Shown here in pieces: positions 33,612-49,102 of a stretch of 64,000 nucleotides of DNA. Location: the IMG/VR virus record IMGVR_UViG_3300042465_006264; one strand, written 5' to 3'. The notes beneath the pieces were generated by a model that worked only from the letters and a program-made list of their open reading frames with translations, was not told where the DNA came from and made no database searches. The translations under genes were made by a program, and so were the position numbers. Source of the DNA: an uncultured virus (IMG/VR IMGVR_UViG_3300042465_006264) (Duplodnaviria; Heunggongvirae; Uroviricota; Caudoviricetes). The number at the start of each line of letters is the position of its first letter. The first letter of the stretch is position 1.

Positions 33612-34176
33612 CATCAGAACTGAAACAGATGAAGTTAACAGACCCGGTTCAAGAATCTGGTTAATGATGAATGATAATTCAAAGGCAAAAATTTTAAGAG
33701 ATCAATTTATTTCAAAACATGGTGGATCTTTTTACAGAGATGGTAGAACTTGGAAATGGAGATCTCCTGTAACTGAAAAAAATGGGTATTGGCTAAAAAG
33801 GGTAGATACCCAAGAAAAAGTATTTTTTGAAAGCATGACTGAATTTGGAAACAAGCATGGTTTAACTCCAGTAAAAATTTGTGAATTATTGAATGGAAAA
33901 AGAAAAACATATAAAGGCTGGACTGCTGTAGAAATACGAGCCGTAAAGGAAGGGGTGGGCTCCAACATAAAAGAAAAAGAGAAAAAGAAAATAAAGATAA
34001 AATCTTATAACGGTGCTACATTTCAAAATATAGTGACCAAAGAAGTATTTTACATAGATAATATTTTTCAATTTTGCAAGGACAATGGGTTGTGCAGCAG
34101 TAATCTTTATAAAGTAGCAACTGGGAAGGCAAAAAGTTATAAAAATTTAAAATTGTATAATCCTTTGGAGACCTAA
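33598..34176 (+). CDS. Protein with two NUMOD1-like DNA-binding modules
   Basis: FESMTEF..HGL..I..LLNGKRKTYKGW and IFQFCKDNGL..NLYKVATGKAKSYK. Confidence 0.6.
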   Translation: MEIHNIRTETDEVNRPGSRIWLMMNDNSKAKILRDQFISKHGGSFYRDGRTWKWRSPVTEKNGYWLKRVDTQEKVFFESMTEFGNKHGLTPVKICELLNGKRKTYKGWTAVEIRAVKEGVGSNIKEKEKKKIKIKSYNGATFQNIVTKEVFYIDNIFQFCKDNGLCSSNLYKVATGKAKSYKNLKLYNPLET

Positions 34177-46932: not shown

Positions 46933-47250
46933 TTATGACTCCATGTTCTTGTAGGTTTCAATATCAATCTTCAATTCAGCATTCTCTTCTTCAAGTTCTT
47001 TGATTCTTGCTTTGAGTGATTCAATTTCTTTGGCCATATTACTTTTTACATGATTAAAATTTGCTATTTGGTCATATGGAGATTTTAAGGATTTGTTTTT
47101 AGGATACTTGCTTTTTTTATCATATGATTCAAAATCTTGATAATAATATGATAAAGCGTCAATTTTATTCTTTGTTGGATCGTGTTCCAAATTTGCATTT
47201 TCAACAATAAAGTTAAGATCTTCAATTGTTAATTCAATTTCTTCATTCAT
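46933..47250 (-). CDS. Hypothetical protein with C-terminal coiled coil
   Basis: MNEEIELTIEDL start, just after a minus-strand TTGACT promoter. Confidence 0.6.
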   Translation of the reverse strand: MNEEIELTIEDLNFIVENANLEHDPTKNKIDALSYYYQDFESYDKKSKYPKNKSLKSPYDQIANFNHVKSNMAKEIESLKARIKELEEENAELKIDIETYKNMES

Positions 47251-47287
47251 GGCAATAATATACTCCATGATTTAGCGAAGTCAAATC

Positions 47288-47315
47288 TTGACTCTAAGTA
47301 TTCTTAGGCTATACT
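47288..47315 (+). promoter_or_regulatory. Promoter TTGACT-N16-TATACT of the tRNA cluster
   Basis: 9 nt upstream of tRNA-Gly. Confidence 0.75.
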
Positions 47316-47324
47316 GTGTTCGTT

Positions 47325-47396
47325 GCGGGTGTAACTCAGTGGTAGAGTGCTAGCCTTCCAAGCTTGCTGTCGAGGGTTCAAGTCCCTTCACCCGCT
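47325..47396 (+). tRNA. tRNA-Gly(TCC)
   Basis: GCGGGTG/CACCCGC acceptor; CTTCCAA anticodon loop; GTTCAAG T-loop. Confidence 0.93.
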
Positions 47397-47411
47397 TTGA
47401 CAATCGAATAT

Positions 47412-47556
47412 GCACGCTGTTCGTTATGACGAACTAGGATGAATGGCTGGCCAGCAGTCATCTGAAAAGAACTGTAGAGAGGTCCAATAACGGGTAAGTG
47501 AAGGCCGTAGCCTTCGCCTCTCCTTCTTCAAATGGGTTTAAGTCCCTCGGCGTGCT
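47412..47556 (+). ncRNA. Unassigned tRNA-like structured RNA (~145 nt)
   Basis: Ends pair (GCACGCTG/CGGCGTGC); T-arm-like GGG-TTTAAGT-CCC; several internal hairpins. Confidence 0.6.
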
Positions 47557-47563
47557 ACAAATT

Positions 47564-47635
47564 GCCACCTTAGCTCAATGGTAGAGCCTTGCTTTTGTAA
47601 AGCAGAGGTTGCGGGTTCGAATCCCACAGGTGGCT
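47564..47635 (+). tRNA. tRNA-Thr(TGT)
   Basis: GCCACCT/AGGTGGC acceptor; TTTGTAA loop. Confidence 0.93.
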
Positions 47636-47638
47636 TTG

Positions 47639-47720
47639 GCGAGTATACTCAAGCGGTCAACGAGGTCTGACTGTAAATCAGATGGCAAAGCCTACGGGAG
47701 TTCGAATCTCTCTGCTCGCA
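47639..47720 (+). tRNA. tRNA-Tyr(GTA)
   Basis: GCGAGTA/TGCTCGC acceptor; TCTGA-CTGTAAA-TCAGA; long variable arm. Confidence 0.93.
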
Positions 47721-47722
47721 TT

Positions 47723-48331
47723 ATGTACGATATCAATATCCCACATTTTTATTGTTTGTTAAGAAAAGAGCATCTTTACCAAAACAAAGATCATTTCTTT
47801 GAATATGAAAAGGTAGCAGTCTTTGGAGCACAATCCAGTGCTGGAAAGGCTTTGTTGTTTACAGTAATGTTGGATAACGGAACAATAAGAAGTAGAGTTC
47901 CAATTCATATGTTATGCAGTAAAGAAGGCCCATCAGATCCATTAGATTACTTGCAACTTTGGGATTGTTTTTCTGAAAATGTTACGGTCACAACTTATAG
48001 TTTTTTAAAGGGTGCCAGAGCAAAAGTTATATTTAAAGATAAAAGTCACTCTTGGGGAAATTATAAAATGACATTTGATTGGTATGATAACCCATACAGC
48101 AACGAACCATCTCAATACAAATGTCTTCACATGATTGAACTGGATAATGGAAATTATGCTCTACAACCAAACAATAGAATATTTTGGAAAGAAATGTCTT
48201 TTACGACCAAGCCATTTCCAGAAAAACCAGATTATAAAGTTGACACACAGGAGTATAGATGCGAGAATAAAAGCGATAGATGGATTATAAGTGATGATGA
48301 CAATTATTATTACGATATAAATCCTACATAA
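47723..48331 (+). CDS. Conserved phage hypothetical protein
   Basis: NIPHFYC..RKEHL, LQLWDCFS, LDNGNYALQPNNRI; true start lies after tRNA-Tyr. Confidence 0.75.
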   Translation: MYDINIPHFYCLLRKEHLYQNKDHFFEYEKVAVFGAQSSAGKALLFTVMLDNGTIRSRVPIHMLCSKEGPSDPLDYLQLWDCFSENVTVTTYSFLKGARAKVIFKDKSHSWGNYKMTFDWYDNPYSNEPSQYKCLHMIELDNGNYALQPNNRIFWKEMSFTTKPFPEKPDYKVDTQEYRCENKSDRWIISDDDNYYYDINPT

Positions 48332-48335
48332 TAAT

Positions 48336-48530
48336 GGTATTGTTGATATCGGATTGAAATGCGTATGACACGGGAGTTCGAATCTCCCCGGATCCACTTT
48401 ACGGGTCCGACAGGCATCGATCAGCGTAGAGTAATGAAGAAGGAGATACCCGACACGGGTAACAAGTGTCGTAAATAAACAGTTGCAACAACAAAAGCCG
48501 CACCAATGCGGATGGCTGCTTAAAGCAGTG
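48336..48530 (+). ncRNA. ssrA: Circularly permuted (two-piece-type) tmRNA; 5' boundary approximate
   Basis: T-arm and 3' acceptor strand (48372-48396) precede 5' strand GGGTCCG (48403-48409); G3:U70 pair; pk1; tag ORF 48485-48523 ending MAA-TAA. Confidence 0.88.
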
Positions 48531-48536
48531 GGGTTT

Positions 48537-48572
48537 CCCGGTTTTCCCGCGACTGAAAAACCGGGTTTTTTA
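48537..48572 (+). terminator. Intrinsic terminator after tmRNA
   Basis: CCCGGTTTT...AAAACCGGG followed by T6. Confidence 0.85.
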
Positions 48573-48589
48573 TTGCCATAAATATCTTT

Positions 48590-49102
48590 ATGCAGCACCC
48601 CAACGAGGGATTTATTAGAAGTTTTTTAGGCAAAGATAAAGCCTACAAAGAACAACTCTTGGCTGAGGAAAAAAAGCAAAGAGTAAATGAATATTTTGCT
48701 CGTAAGAAAAACAAGCAAAATGTTCTTAGAGAAGAAAATAAAAAATCCATAACAAAAACTATTGATGTTGTTTATTCAAATTCAAAAAAACAACCATTAC
48801 TAGAACAAAAAAACACACAAGATTGGCAAACTGTTCAAACACAACATGGTATTTTTTACTACAATGAAAAAACAAAAGAATGGATGAATAATTTTGGAGT
48901 TATAAAGCCATCTCTTAATGATTTCATTAGTATTTTTGATTATAATATAATTAATGATAACTTAAACAAAAAACAAAAGCCACCAGCAACTCCATCCAAT
49001 ATTCAAACTATAACCTCTATCAATGGAATTACTTTGAGTTGGCAAGATAACTCAGATAATGAAATTGAATTCCAAACTTATGGAAGAATAGAATTGATAT
49101 AA
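48590..49102 (+). CDS. Late protein ending in the N-terminal half of an FN3 domain
   Basis: ATAAATA upstream; PPATPSNIQT...ITLSWQDNSDNEIEF. Confidence 0.65.
   Translation: MQHPNEGFIRSFLGKDKAYKEQLLAEEKKQRVNEYFARKKNKQNVLREENKKSITKTIDVVYSNSKKQPLLEQKNTQDWQTVQTQHGIFYYNEKTKEWMNNFGVIKPSLNDFISIFDYNIINDNLNKKQKPPATPSNIQTITSINGITLSWQDNSDNEIEFQTYGRIELI

What the first reader, a model, noticed from the sequence alone, without database searches (positions are those of the whole stretch)
47412..47556. Unassigned ~145-nt tRNA-like RNA inside the tRNA operon
Seen: between tRNA-Gly and tRNA-Thr, the ends form an 8-bp acceptor-like stem (GCACGCTG/CGGCGTGC) preceded by a T-arm-like GGG-TTTAAGT-CCC. Inside lie TTCGT/ACGAA, GATGA..GCTG/CAGC..TCATC and a GAGAG/CTCTC domain holding GTGAAGGC-CGTA-GCCTTCGC. 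There is no canonical anticodon arm. Inference: a tRNA mimic matured by RNase P/Z, possibly a decoy for anticodon nucleases, a Y-RNA-like molecule or a new ncRNA class.
Basis: partly seen in the sequence, partly recalled or inferred. Interest (0 to 1): 0.75.

Follow-up and report, generated by a model that had tools for sequence, protein, structure and literature searches.

The report
Phage tRNA-shaped RNA that cannot decode
This is a real gene for a 145-base RNA that keeps a transfer RNA's top half but has rebuilt, conserved lower arms and no anticodon; it defines an uncatalogued RNA family of T4-like lake phages whose job, like that of phage T4's long-known RNAC, is still unknown.

Summary
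Window 47412-47556 (+) lies between tRNA-Gly(UCC) and tRNA-Thr(UGU). It folds into an 8-bp acceptor stem and a 3-bp T stem with a 7-nt T loop. Three inner domains replace the D arm, anticodon arm and variable region.

It is not chance and not a dead tRNA. I found the same RNA in 12 IMG/VR phage contigs and 2 further metagenome contigs, in two deep clades only 57% identical. In 12 distinct sequences 96.8% of cells stay paired, and 19 of 40 pairs show compensatory double changes, against 1-4 in slid controls. Unpaired motifs are invariant: CUAG, a GGCC tetraloop, UGAnAAGA, AAUGGGU and a U discriminator.

Rfam, ARAGORN (also relaxed or with introns), cultured-phage records and 185,579 prokaryote genomes give no match. 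The carriers are T4-like phages of lake water.

Best reading: a non-decoding, tRNA-framed stable RNA. It would be co-transcribed with the tRNAs and released by RNase P and the tRNA 3'-end/CCA pathway; this is inferred. The closest known thing in kind is T4 RNAC, with no detectable homology. Function is unknown; a tRNA-mimic or scaffold role is a guess. I found no expression data.

The parts
47288..47315 (+). sigma-70-like promoter candidate (TTGACT-16-TATACT) 9 nt upstream of tRNA-Gly; probable start of the Gly / tRNA-like RNA / Thr / Tyr transcript
   Evidence: 10 of 12 consensus matches. This is a consensus match only, not shown to be active.
47325..47396 (+). tRNA-Gly(UCC), upstream neighbour. 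Its T-arm core GGGTTCAAGTCCC differs by one base from the element's here and is identical to that of the L015-clade homologues
   Evidence: (67.5 bits)
47412..47556 (+). the whole 145-nt tRNA-shaped RNA gene (144 nt plus discriminator U; no encoded CCA)
47412..47419 (+). acceptor stem, 5' strand (GCACGCUG); pairs with 47548-47555
   Evidence: 8 pairs, 100% of cells paired, 3 pairs with compensatory change, 1 with U-A/U.G
47420..47433 (+). hairpin H1 in the D-arm position (UUCGU-UAUG-ACGAA). The loop has no G18G19-type GG
   Evidence: 5 pairs, 2 with compensatory change; the innermost pair is broken in 8 of 12 sequences
47434..47437 (+). invariant junction CUAG
   Evidence: invariant in 12 of 12
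47438..47462 (+). rod H2 in the anticodon-arm position: 5 bp, an internal loop, then 4 pairs closed by the invariant GGCC tetraloop (47449-47452)
   Evidence: 9 pairs, 6 with compensatory change, 98% paired. GGCC invariant
47463..47476 (+). junction strand with the conserved UGAnAAGA
   Evidence: The motif recurs in the shorter 'type B' tRNA-like RNAs of related phages
47477..47522 (+). three-way-junction domain in the variable-arm position. It has a 7-bp stem, a small hairpin CC/GG, and the hairpin GAAGGC-CGUA-GCCUUC
   Evidence: Stem: 3 of 7 pairs compensatory. Small hairpin: 1 of 2. Second hairpin: 4 of 6
47523..47533 (+). junction strand ending in the invariant AAU before the T stem
47534..47546 (+). 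T arm: GGG / UUUAAGU / CCC. U at loop position 1 and A at position 5 are kept. A U.U layer (47533/47547) joins it to the acceptor stem, so 8+1+3 = 12 stacked layers, as in the 7+5 of a tRNA
   Evidence: (3 pairs, invariant)
47548..47555 (+). acceptor stem, 3' strand (CGGCGUGC)
47556..47556 (+). discriminator-position U, invariant; followed by a 7-nt spacer and no CCA
47564..47720 (+). tRNA-Thr(UGU) 47564-47635 and tRNA-Tyr(GUA) 47639-47720, downstream members of the same cluster

Best explanation
Window 47412-47556 (+) is a gene for a stable, non-decoding RNA built on a tRNA frame.

Shown:
- The two ends pair into an 8-bp acceptor stem.
- That stem stacks through a U.U layer on a 3-bp T stem carrying a 7-nt T loop. 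This gives the 12-layer 'top half' of a tRNA, with a U at the discriminator position.
- The rest is a five-way junction. A short hairpin sits where the D arm would be.
- An ~11-bp rod capped by an invariant GGCC tetraloop sits where the anticodon arm would be.
- A three-way-junction domain sits where the variable arm would be.
- All helices except the invariant T stem are kept by compensatory changes in two phage clades that are 57% identical.
- The junction strands are more conserved than the helices.

Inferred:
- It is transcribed with tRNA-Gly, tRNA-Thr and tRNA-Tyr from the promoter-like site at 47288-47315.
- It is cut out by RNase P at G47412 and by the tRNA 3'-end pathway at U47556, and it receives CCA from the host enzyme. 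None of the neighbouring tRNAs encodes CCA either.
- It cannot read a codon.

Guess (about 1 chance in 4): the tRNA top half serves as a processing and stability handle, and as bait for a protein that recognises tRNA by its acceptor/T-arm end. The conserved lower half would be the specific payload. On this guess the RNA titrates or redirects a host or phage factor of tRNA metabolism, translation or tRNA-directed defence.

It works like T4 RNAC in every respect that can be seen, and the function of RNAC is itself unknown.
For: Anatomy and position:
-.

No known family:
- Rfam at gathering scores gives nothing here.
- At E<=10 the only overlap is a noise match, STnc280, at 16.5 bits against a cut-off of 80.
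- ARAGORN gives no tRNA or tmRNA call, even with introns allowed or thresholds at 80%.

Homologues:
- L015 and a cut copy in L013, among 81 loci searched.
- L090 and L093, among 20 metagenome loci. Seventeen of those loci were unrelated GC-rich matches.
- A divergent clade in 10 more IMG/VR contigs.
- The model R1 scores 12 of 12 of these at 85.6-197 bits.

Covariation on 12 distinct sequences:
- 96.8% of 472 cells are paired.
- 19 of 40 pairs have changes on both sides (76 cells).
- 0 of 500 shuffles reach the score; slid controls give 1-4 pairs and 38-48% paired.
- The uncorrected MAFFT alignment of the 5 closest sequences already gave 97.5% paired and 3 compensatory pairs.
- 17 cells are G.U, which would be C.A on the other strand. 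The pairing is therefore in RNA read from the + strand.

Conservation pattern:
- Window against L110: 57% identity overall, 52% in paired columns and 63% in unpaired columns.

Context:
- Always inside a tRNA cluster and next to tRNA-Gly(UCC): downstream of it here, upstream of it in the other clade.
- One copy per record in 2 of 2 carriers searched whole.
- Promoter-like site.
- The carriers have T4-type replication genes.
- The family spans phages whose DNA polymerases are only 37-46% identical to this one's.

Closest known:
- T4's tRNA cluster holds the 139-nt RNAC, with a T arm and an acceptor-like stem.
Against: - No transcript evidence. The two RNA-type runs laid cover only the flanking tRNA parts, at 82-95% likeness, and not the element.
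- Ends, CCA addition and stability are inferred from the tRNA-like shape alone.
- The T stem has only 3 pairs and never varies, so comparison neither supports nor contradicts it.
- The T loop departs from the canonical sequence at positions 55-56 (UU here, UC or GC in relatives), and the D-position loop lacks GG. The tRNA elbow may therefore not form.
- The 12-sequence alignment was fitted to my structure by the model, which favours that structure.
- The 12 sequences come from about three lineages, so independent events are fewer than cells.
- Nothing in the data points to a particular partner or function.
- The model finds no likeness to T4 RNAC beyond a tRNA T arm at 5.5 bits.
Confidence: 0.8

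Rival explanations
1. A tRNA-scaffolded regulatory RNA. The tRNA frame only provides processing and stability. The invariant single-stranded motifs (UGAnAAGA, the pyrimidine-rich 3' side of domain 3, the GGCC loop) base-pair with a target RNA such as the phage's own tmRNA or host mRNAs.
For: - Unpaired motifs are more conserved than stems.
- In the window, element bases 108-120 are almost fully complementary to GAAGAAGGAGA in the phage tmRNA. The duplex energy is -13.5 kcal/mol, and 0 of 200 shuffles reach it.
- Shorter tRNA-like RNAs of related phages lie directly upstream of the tmRNA gene.
Against: - The tmRNA motif is invariant in 8 of 8 tmRNAs examined, whether or not the phage has this RNA.
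- The element's side changes (CUUCUUCA, CUUUAUCG, UUAGUCGA) without any matching change in the tmRNA.
- Better duplexes for the same segment exist elsewhere in the window, down to -16.0.
- The conserved junction strands may simply build the tertiary core.
Confidence: 0.1
2. An aminoacylated tRNA-like carrier used outside decoding, for example a glycine donor. It keeps the acceptor-end features that a synthetase reads, but cannot enter the ribosomal A site as a decoder.
For: - G1-C72 and the U discriminator are invariant. The neighbouring tRNA-Gly(UCC) has both (alignment).
- The RNA is adjacent to tRNA-Gly(UCC) in both clades.
- From my own recall, not from a call: U73 with G1-C72 and C2-G71 belongs to the bacterial glycine identity set.
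Against: - Position 3-70 is A-U, not G-C. Pair 2-71 varies between C-G and U-A.
- There are no anticodon bases.
- No charging data exist, and this cannot be tested with these tools.
Confidence: 0.06
3. A decoding tRNA interrupted by insertions ('introns', as reported for Lak megaphage tRNAs) that are removed to give a normal tRNA.
For: - The frame is that of a tRNA, with arms in the D, anticodon, variable and T positions.
- Phage tRNAs with conserved inserts are in print (PMC6784885, passages read).
Against: - ARAGORN with introns allowed and thresholds at 80% calls nothing here.
- No 7-nt anticodon loop can be formed in any of the 12 sequences.
- The inserts sit in at least two arms.
- The whole RNA, inserts included, is under structural selection.
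- The inserts are far shorter than group I introns (my own knowledge).
Confidence: 0.04
4. A decayed duplicate of tRNA-Gly (a pseudogene), or a DNA-level element such as a palindromic protein site or a homing-endonuclease target, with no RNA function.
For: - The T-arm core is identical or nearly identical to that of the adjacent tRNA-Gly.
- GCTGGCCAGC is a DNA palindrome.
- An HNH endonuclease ORF sits in the tRNA cluster of a relative (L009).
- The element is absent from some close relatives (L012 has Gly-Thr-Tyr adjacent).
Against: - 19 of 40 pairs are kept by double changes across 57% identity.
- 17 G.U cells make sense only in RNA of the + strand.
- Single-stranded motifs are invariant.
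- The stem under the GGCC loop covaries (U-A/C-G and G-C/A-U), as in a hairpin rather than a fixed DNA site.
Confidence: 0.02

Closest known systems
Bacteriophage T4 RNAC (species 1 RNA, rnaC; 139 nt) and RNAD of the T4 tRNA gene cluster
   Same: - A stable-RNA gene lying among the tRNA genes of a T4-type phage.
- About 140 nt long.
- The ends pair into an acceptor-like stem next to a T arm (CCGGG-UUCGAAU-CCCGG in T4).
- Long hairpins stand in place of the D and anticodon arms, and there is no anticodon.
- The function of RNAC and RNAD is stated to be unknown in PMC3014915 (passage) and PMC9697503 (passages).
- Neither T4 RNA has an Rfam family.
   Different: - No detectable sequence or structure homology. 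Model R1 finds only a tRNA T arm in the T4 locus, at 5.5 bits.
- T4 RNAC has one long irregular hairpin plus one short one. This RNA is a five-way junction with a GGCC-capped rod and a three-way-junction domain.
- The acceptor is 8 bp and perfect here; in T4 it is 7 layers with two U.U.
Canonical tRNA (Rfam RF00005), in particular the adjacent phage tRNA-Gly(UCC)
   Same: - An acceptor/T-arm stack of 12 layers.
- A T loop with U at position 1 and A at position 5.
- G1-C72 and a U discriminator, as in the neighbouring tRNA-Gly.
- No encoded CCA.
- The same spacing from its neighbours as the tRNAs of the cluster.
   Different: - No anticodon loop, and no G18G19 in the D-position loop.
- T stem of 3 bp, a 46-nt domain in the variable position, 145 nt in all.
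- No RF00005 match at E<=10 and no ARAGORN call.
tRNAs with conserved 'enigmatic introns' in Lak megaphages (Devoto et al. 2019, PMC6784885)
   Same: Oversized, conserved tRNA-framed genes in large phages that standard bacterial tRNA finders fail to classify (passages read).
   Different: - Those are described as tRNAs with an assignable anticodon once an insert is removed. Here no anticodon loop exists.
- The phage group and habitat differ.
- I did not see their sequences.
tmRNA tRNA-like domain (this phage has its own permuted tmRNA at 48305-48614)
   Same: An acceptor stem plus T arm without an anticodon arm. It is encoded by the same phage 750 nt downstream.
   Different: - No tag reading frame and no pseudoknots.
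- Pair 3-70 is A-U, not G.U.
- ARAGORN's tmRNA mode and the Rfam tmRNA families do not match it.

Membership tests
Canonical tRNA (RF00005) | Scores at or above the family's gathering score (29 bits), or is called by a tRNA finder | tested here: not met
   No RF00005 match over 47412-47556 even at E<=10. ARAGORN gives none by default, with introns, or at 80% thresholds.
Canonical tRNA (RF00005) | Anticodon arm: 5-bp stem with a 7-nt loop (U33, purine 37) | tested here: not met
   The arm in that position is an ~11-bp rod closed by a GGCC tetraloop in 12 of 12 sequences.
Canonical tRNA (RF00005) | Acceptor stem stacked on a T arm (12 layers), with a T loop having U at position 1 and A at position 5 | tested here: met
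   8 bp + U.U + 3 bp, with loop UUUAAGU / UUCAAGU / UGCAAGU.
T4 RNAC-type stable RNA of phage tRNA clusters | Lies within the tRNA gene cluster of a T4-type phage | tested here: met
   (position). T4-type clamp, clamp loader, polymerase, UvsX, helicase and primase.
T4 RNAC-type stable RNA of phage tRNA clusters | About 120-140 nt, with an acceptor-like terminal stem and a T arm, and no anticodon | tested here: met
   for this RNA. for T4 RNAC.
T4 RNAC-type stable RNA of phage tRNA clusters | Sequence or structure homology to T4 rnaC | tested here: not met
   Model R1 over the T4 locus L104 gives only a 14-nt tRNA T-arm match at 5.5 bits, E 9.4. blastn of the element against 50,697 phage records gives only noise.
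T4 RNAC-type stable RNA of phage tRNA clusters | Accumulates as a discrete stable RNA processed with the tRNAs | not testable with these tools
   The only RNA-type runs found do not cover it.
tmRNA | tRNA-like domain plus a tag-peptide reading frame and pseudoknots; G3.U70 | tested here: not met
   ARAGORN -m finds none. No tmRNA family matches it in Rfam. Pair 3-70 is A-U in 12 of 12.
Bacterial Y RNA-like RNA (YrlA type) | The termini form the Ro-binding helix, and the tRNA-like module is internal | tested here: not met
   Here the termini form the acceptor stem itself. No Rfam Y RNA family matches. The definition of the family is from my own recall. I did not look for a Ro homologue.
tRNA-Sec / allo-tRNA (8/4-type tRNAs) | 8-bp acceptor with a shortened T stem, together with a functional anticodon loop | tested here: not met
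   The 8-bp acceptor with a 3(+1)-layer T stem is present, but there is no anticodon loop. No RF01852 match at E<=10.

The most novel reading that the evidence does not exclude
This RNA may be one member of a large, undescribed class of phage 'tRNA-framed' effector RNAs.

In this reading, phages reuse the tRNA top half as a universal handle. The handle gives RNase P release, CCA addition, nuclease resistance and recognition by tRNA-binding proteins. Into it they plug interchangeable, fast-evolving structured payloads.

The related phages fit this picture. They carry at least four other such RNAs (82-114 nt), and modules are shared between them. These include the CUAG-rod module, the UGAcAAGAGAU strand, and the same T-arm/3' frame in the 95-nt 'type E' RNAs.

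The payloads would bind and disarm host factors that act on tRNA. Examples are defence toxins that recognise the acceptor/T-arm end rather than the anticodon.

The invariant self-complementary GGCC loop (UGCA in the short relative) would let two molecules kiss into a dimer.
Probability: 0.25. Interest if true: 0.85.

Novelty: new variant of a known kind. Interest (0 to 1): 0.62.

Why it matters
Phage T4's RNAC and RNAD have been known for about fifty years, and they are still described as having no known role (PMC3014915, PMC9697503).

This finding shows that a tRNA-ended, anticodon-less RNA is not a T4 oddity. An unrelated-in-sequence but like-built RNA is kept under strong structural selection in distant T4-like lake phages. 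Their DNA polymerases are about 40% identical.

The family now has a covariation-backed secondary structure, invariant motifs to mutate and a covariance model. That makes the old question 'what are these RNAs for?' testable by pull-down, charging and processing assays.

It also matters for annotation. Such genes are missed by tRNA finders and by Rfam.

Tried and rejected
- **Rfam:** no family at gathering scores or at E<=10. The other tRNA-like elements of related loci also have none.
- **Cultured phages:** blastn of the element against 50,697 records gave 12 records. All had <=22% cover and E>=2, so I treat them as noise.
- **Own genome:** not held. The nearest record, G001, is a 43-kb fragment without the region.
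- **Exact-pattern scans that found only what I already had:**
- **Prokaryote genomes:** a family-specific pattern gave 0 matches in the 185,579-species collection. This is an exact pattern, so diverged copies would be missed.
- **Expression:** 24 runs were listed; 21 are lake-water DNA runs holding 0.48-0.93 of the sampled words. The 3 RNA-type runs hold 0.05-0.07.
- **Laying reads:** I laid 2 DNA and 2 RNA-type runs. One DNA contig covers the element with no differences. The RNA-type contigs cover only the tRNA parts. So there is no verdict on transcription.
- **ARAGORN** relaxed, with introns, and in tmRNA and mitochondrial modes gave no credible call. At 70% thresholds and in mitochondrial mode it gives overlapping calls on both strands, which I regard as noise.
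- **Pairing between the two long junction strands:** AGAA/UUCU in the window's MFE fold is not kept in the same columns in relatives, by my own reading.
- **Complementarity to the phage tmRNA motif GAAGAAGGAGA:** rejected for lack of co-variation.
- **Homology to T4 rnaC:** not found.
- **T-arm-like words at 33859 and 39069:** these lie inside ORFs with no acceptor pairing, so I treat them as chance.
- **Coding reading:** there are only 7 ORFs of 21-36 aa across the region, on both strands. The substitution pattern is that of helices.
- **Neighbouring proteins:** no informative Pfam or PHROG names.
- **Literature:** seven full-text searches found no description of this family.
- **Earlier notes of this scan, looked up by sequence:** nothing.

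Full report
**What is there.** The window is part of a T4-like phage.
- PHROG profiles name a sliding clamp, clamp loader, family-B DNA polymerase, UvsX, replicative helicase, primase and ribonucleotide reductase.
- Near-identical DNA is held by 21 lake-water DNA runs, at 0.48-0.93 of the sampled words.
- ARAGORN and Rfam find tRNA-Gly(UCC) at 47325-47396, tRNA-Thr(UGU) at 47564-47635 and tRNA-Tyr(GUA) at 47639-47720. They also find a permuted tmRNA at 48305-48614.
- The 145 bases at 47412-47556 lie between Gly and Thr, 15 nt after one and 7 nt before the other.
- On its own the sequence folds only modestly better than shuffles: -49.4 kcal/mol, z = -2.70, with 2 of 200 shuffles as good.

**Not a known family.**
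- Rfam 15 gives nothing at gathering scores. At E<=10 over 47200-47800 it gives only a 16.5-bit noise match to STnc280, whose cut-off is 80.
- ARAGORN does not call a tRNA or tmRNA here, even with introns allowed and thresholds lowered to 80%.
- blastn against 50,697 deposited phage records gives only noise.
- Seven full-text literature searches found no description.

**Homologues.**
- Around relatives of the downstream 188-aa protein I fetched 80 loci. The element is in L015 at 82% identity, in a copy cut by the contig end in L013, and in the window's own IMG/VR contig. That contig differs from the window by one base in a loop.
- One metagenome scan returned 20 loci. Three hold the element: L085 (the L015 contig again), L090 and L093. 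The other 17 are unrelated GC-rich matches.
- A scan for the peculiar T arm, AAUGGGU..AAGUCCCUC, whose outer two layers are mismatched, returned 19 loci.
  - 13 hold this RNA. Ten of these belong to a new, divergent clade.
  - 6 hold a different 95-96-nt RNA with the same T arm and 3' frame ('type E').
- A stricter family pattern finds 12 IMG/VR contigs and none in the 185,579-species prokaryote collection.
- The covariance model R1, built from the five closest sequences, scores 12 of 12 distinct copies at 85.6-197 bits. It scores none of the 5 type E loci I gave it at E<=0.01.
- L115, L121 and L122 were left out of the alignments because they read the same as L110.

**Structure and selection.** On the model-fitted alignment of 12 distinct sequences (A4), the counts are as follows.
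- 96.8% of 472 cells are standard pairs.
- 19 of 40 pairs have changes on both sides (76 cells).
- None of 500 shuffles reaches the covariation score.
- Sliding the 3' partners by 1-3 columns gives 38-48% paired and 1-4 such pairs.

By helix:

| Helix | Pairs with compensatory change | Other note |
|---|---|---|
| Acceptor | 3 of 8 | one more switches U-A/U.G |
| H1 | 2 of 5 | innermost pair broken in 8 of 12 |
| H2 rod | 6 of 9 | |
| Domain-3 stem | 3 of 7 | |
| Small hairpin in domain 3 | 1 of 2 | |
| Second hairpin in domain 3 | 4 of 6 | |
| T stem (3 bp) | 0 of 3 | never varies, so it is untested |

- This alignment leans towards the structure it was fitted to. The plain MAFFT alignment of the five closest sequences already gave 97.5% paired and 3 compensatory pairs.
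- Seventeen cells are G.U, which fits RNA from the + strand only.
- Window against the L110 clade: 57% identity overall, 52% in paired columns and 63% in unpaired columns.
- The invariant unpaired features are CUAG, the GGCC tetraloop, UCUGAnAAGA, the CGUA loop, AAUGGGU, CCCUC and the U at the discriminator position.
- This rules out a decaying tRNA copy and a purely DNA-level element.

**Shape.** The RNA is a five-way junction on a tRNA plan.
- The 8-bp acceptor stem, a U.U layer and the 3-bp T stem make 12 stacked layers, the same as the 7+5 of a tRNA.
- The T loop keeps U at position 1 and A at position 5. Positions 2-3 vary (UU, UC, GC).
- H1 stands where the D arm would, but its 4-6-nt loop has no GG.
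- H2 stands where the anticodon arm would, but it is about twice as long and is closed by GGCC.
- A 46-nt three-way junction stands where a long variable arm would.
- No copy encodes CCA, and neither do the neighbouring tRNAs.
- A promoter-like site, TTGACT-16-TATACT, lies 9 nt upstream of tRNA-Gly.

From this I infer co-transcription, 5' release by RNase P, 3' trimming and CCA addition. None of this is shown. The RNA-type runs that could be laid do not cover the element.

**Context in relatives.**
- The RNA is always inside a tRNA cluster and next to tRNA-Gly(UCC). It is downstream of it here and in the L015 clade, and upstream of it in the L110 clade (Leu-Gln-Leu-[RNA]-Gly).
- It is single-copy in the two carrier records searched whole.
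- In those two records the T4-type DNA polymerase is split into two ORFs. They are 37-38% and 45-46% identical to the window's enzyme, and the tRNA cluster with the RNA lies between them. The family therefore spans distant T4-like phages.
- It is dispensable or replaceable. L012 has Gly-Thr-Tyr adjacent without it, and other relatives carry other things at that place.

**A wider set of tRNA-framed RNAs.** Related phages carry further acceptor-plus-T-arm RNAs without an anticodon loop.
- An 82-nt 'type D' lies in front of the tmRNA gene in L002-L006, with a weaker copy in L009. It shares with this RNA the H1-CUAG-rod layout, with a UGCA instead of a GGCC loop. R1 scores it at 16.4 bits, E 0.007.
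- A 114-nt and a ~96-nt 'type B' occur in L010/L011 and L012. They share the strand UGACAAGAGAU.
- The 95-96-nt 'type E' occurs in six contigs and shares the T arm and 3' frame.

So this RNA reads like a type D frame carrying a large insert in the variable position. Modules appear to be exchanged between frames. That is my reading of a few sequences, not a tested phylogeny.

**Closest known.**
- T4's tRNA cluster holds rnaC (139 nt) and rnaD (119 nt).
- rnaC has a canonical T arm and a terminal stem of seven layers with two U.U. Its inner part is long hairpins.
- Reviews and a 2022 omics study still call the roles of both unknown (passages). Rfam has no family for them.
- The likeness to this RNA is one of kind and context. 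R1 detects no homology.
- Lak megaphage tRNAs with conserved inserts (PMC6784885, passages) are a second, looser parallel.
- Earlier unchecked AI notes of this scan report similar anticodon-less tRNA-shaped RNAs in other phages. I used them only as leads. Look-ups by sequence found none like this one.

**Function.** Nothing here identifies a partner.
- I rejected base-pairing with the phage tmRNA. The complementary tmRNA motif is invariant in 8 of 8 tmRNAs with or without this RNA, while the element's side drifts.
- A decoy for anticodon nucleases is unlikely because there is no anticodon loop.
- The G1-C72/U discriminator end and the constant company of tRNA-Gly leave a small chance of glycine charging.
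- My preferred guess, at about 25%, has two parts. The tRNA top half is a handle for processing, stability and recognition by proteins that read the acceptor/T-arm end. The conserved lower half is the payload that gives specificity.

**Verdict.** The element is a real, selected RNA gene and the founding member, here, of an uncatalogued family. It is a new variant of the kind first seen as T4 RNAC. Its mechanism beyond tRNA-like maturation is open.

Noticed in passing
window 48305-48614: Phage-encoded permuted (two-piece) tmRNA gene. ARAGORN gives the tag ATTKAAPMRMAA*. Rfam tmRNA_permuted scores 52.8 bits at 48336-48523. Relatives also give sub-threshold matches to the betaproteobacterial tmRNA family, which hints at a betaproteobacterial host.
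   Followed up: partly
L002:3577-3658 (also L003-L006; weaker in L009:3591-3653): An 82-nt tRNA-shaped RNA ('type D') directly upstream of the tmRNA gene. It has an acceptor stem, a D-position hairpin, CUAG, a rod with a UGCA loop, a 5-nt variable loop, and the T arm GGG-UGCAGGC-CCC. It looks like this finding's RNA without the big variable-arm insert. The window has nothing at that place.
   Followed up: partly
L010:3567-3680, L011 same, L012:2867-2962: 'Type B' tRNA-framed RNAs (114 and ~96 nt). They have a 7/5 or 6/5 acceptor/T frame and a hairpin with a 7-nt loop GUGGGAA/GUGUGAA. They also carry the strand GUCUUGACAAGAGAUG and a CCAGC...GCUGG hairpin. A 75-nt stretch 79% like it sits inside the spacer between the two pieces of the permuted tmRNA gene of L015 (3653-3727).
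   Followed up: partly
L012:2769-2864; L109, L112, L116, L119, L127: 'Type E' 95-96-nt tRNA-framed RNA. It has the same T arm and 3' frame (GAGAAUGGGUGCAAGUCCCUCGCUACGC) as the L110 clade of this family, but an unrelated inner part. It lies next to tRNA-Gly(UCC) in L116 and L109, and in front of the tmRNA in L112 and L119.
   Followed up: partly
L007:2444-2598, L018:134-289, L010:2732-2870, L009:2238-2372: A different conserved ~140-nt non-coding element in the tRNA cluster (82-92% identity between contigs). By eye it has a possible H-type pseudoknot (GAGGU..CGCG..ACCUC..CGCG). It has no tRNA-like ends and no Rfam match.
   Followed up: partly
L009:2485-2868; L002:2372-2788: ORFs are inserted between tRNA genes in relatives. 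The L009 ORF matches HNH_3 (26.9 bits, cut-off 24.8). The L002 ORF has no Pfam match. This recalls the homing endonuclease segB inside T4's tRNA cluster.
   Followed up: partly
G006:C1:8033-13165 and G005:C1:34634-39963: In the L110-clade carriers the T4-type DNA polymerase is split into two ORFs (residues 1-480 and 494-833 of the window's enzyme). They are about 2.7 kb apart, and the tRNA cluster, including the tRNA-shaped RNA, lies between the halves.
   Followed up: no
window 48436-48446 vs 47519-47531: The tmRNA has an invariant purine run GAAGAAGGAGA. It is complementary to the pyrimidine-rich 3' side of domain 3 of the RNA in the window only. There is no co-variation, so this is probably a matter of composition.
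   Followed up: yes
window 47397-47404; L007:2444-2451; L012:2749-2755: The word UUGACAA(U/C) follows the 3' end of a tRNA gene in several clusters: after Gly here, and after Gly or Tyr in relatives. It could be a processing signal or a -35-like box. I did not examine it.
   Followed up: no
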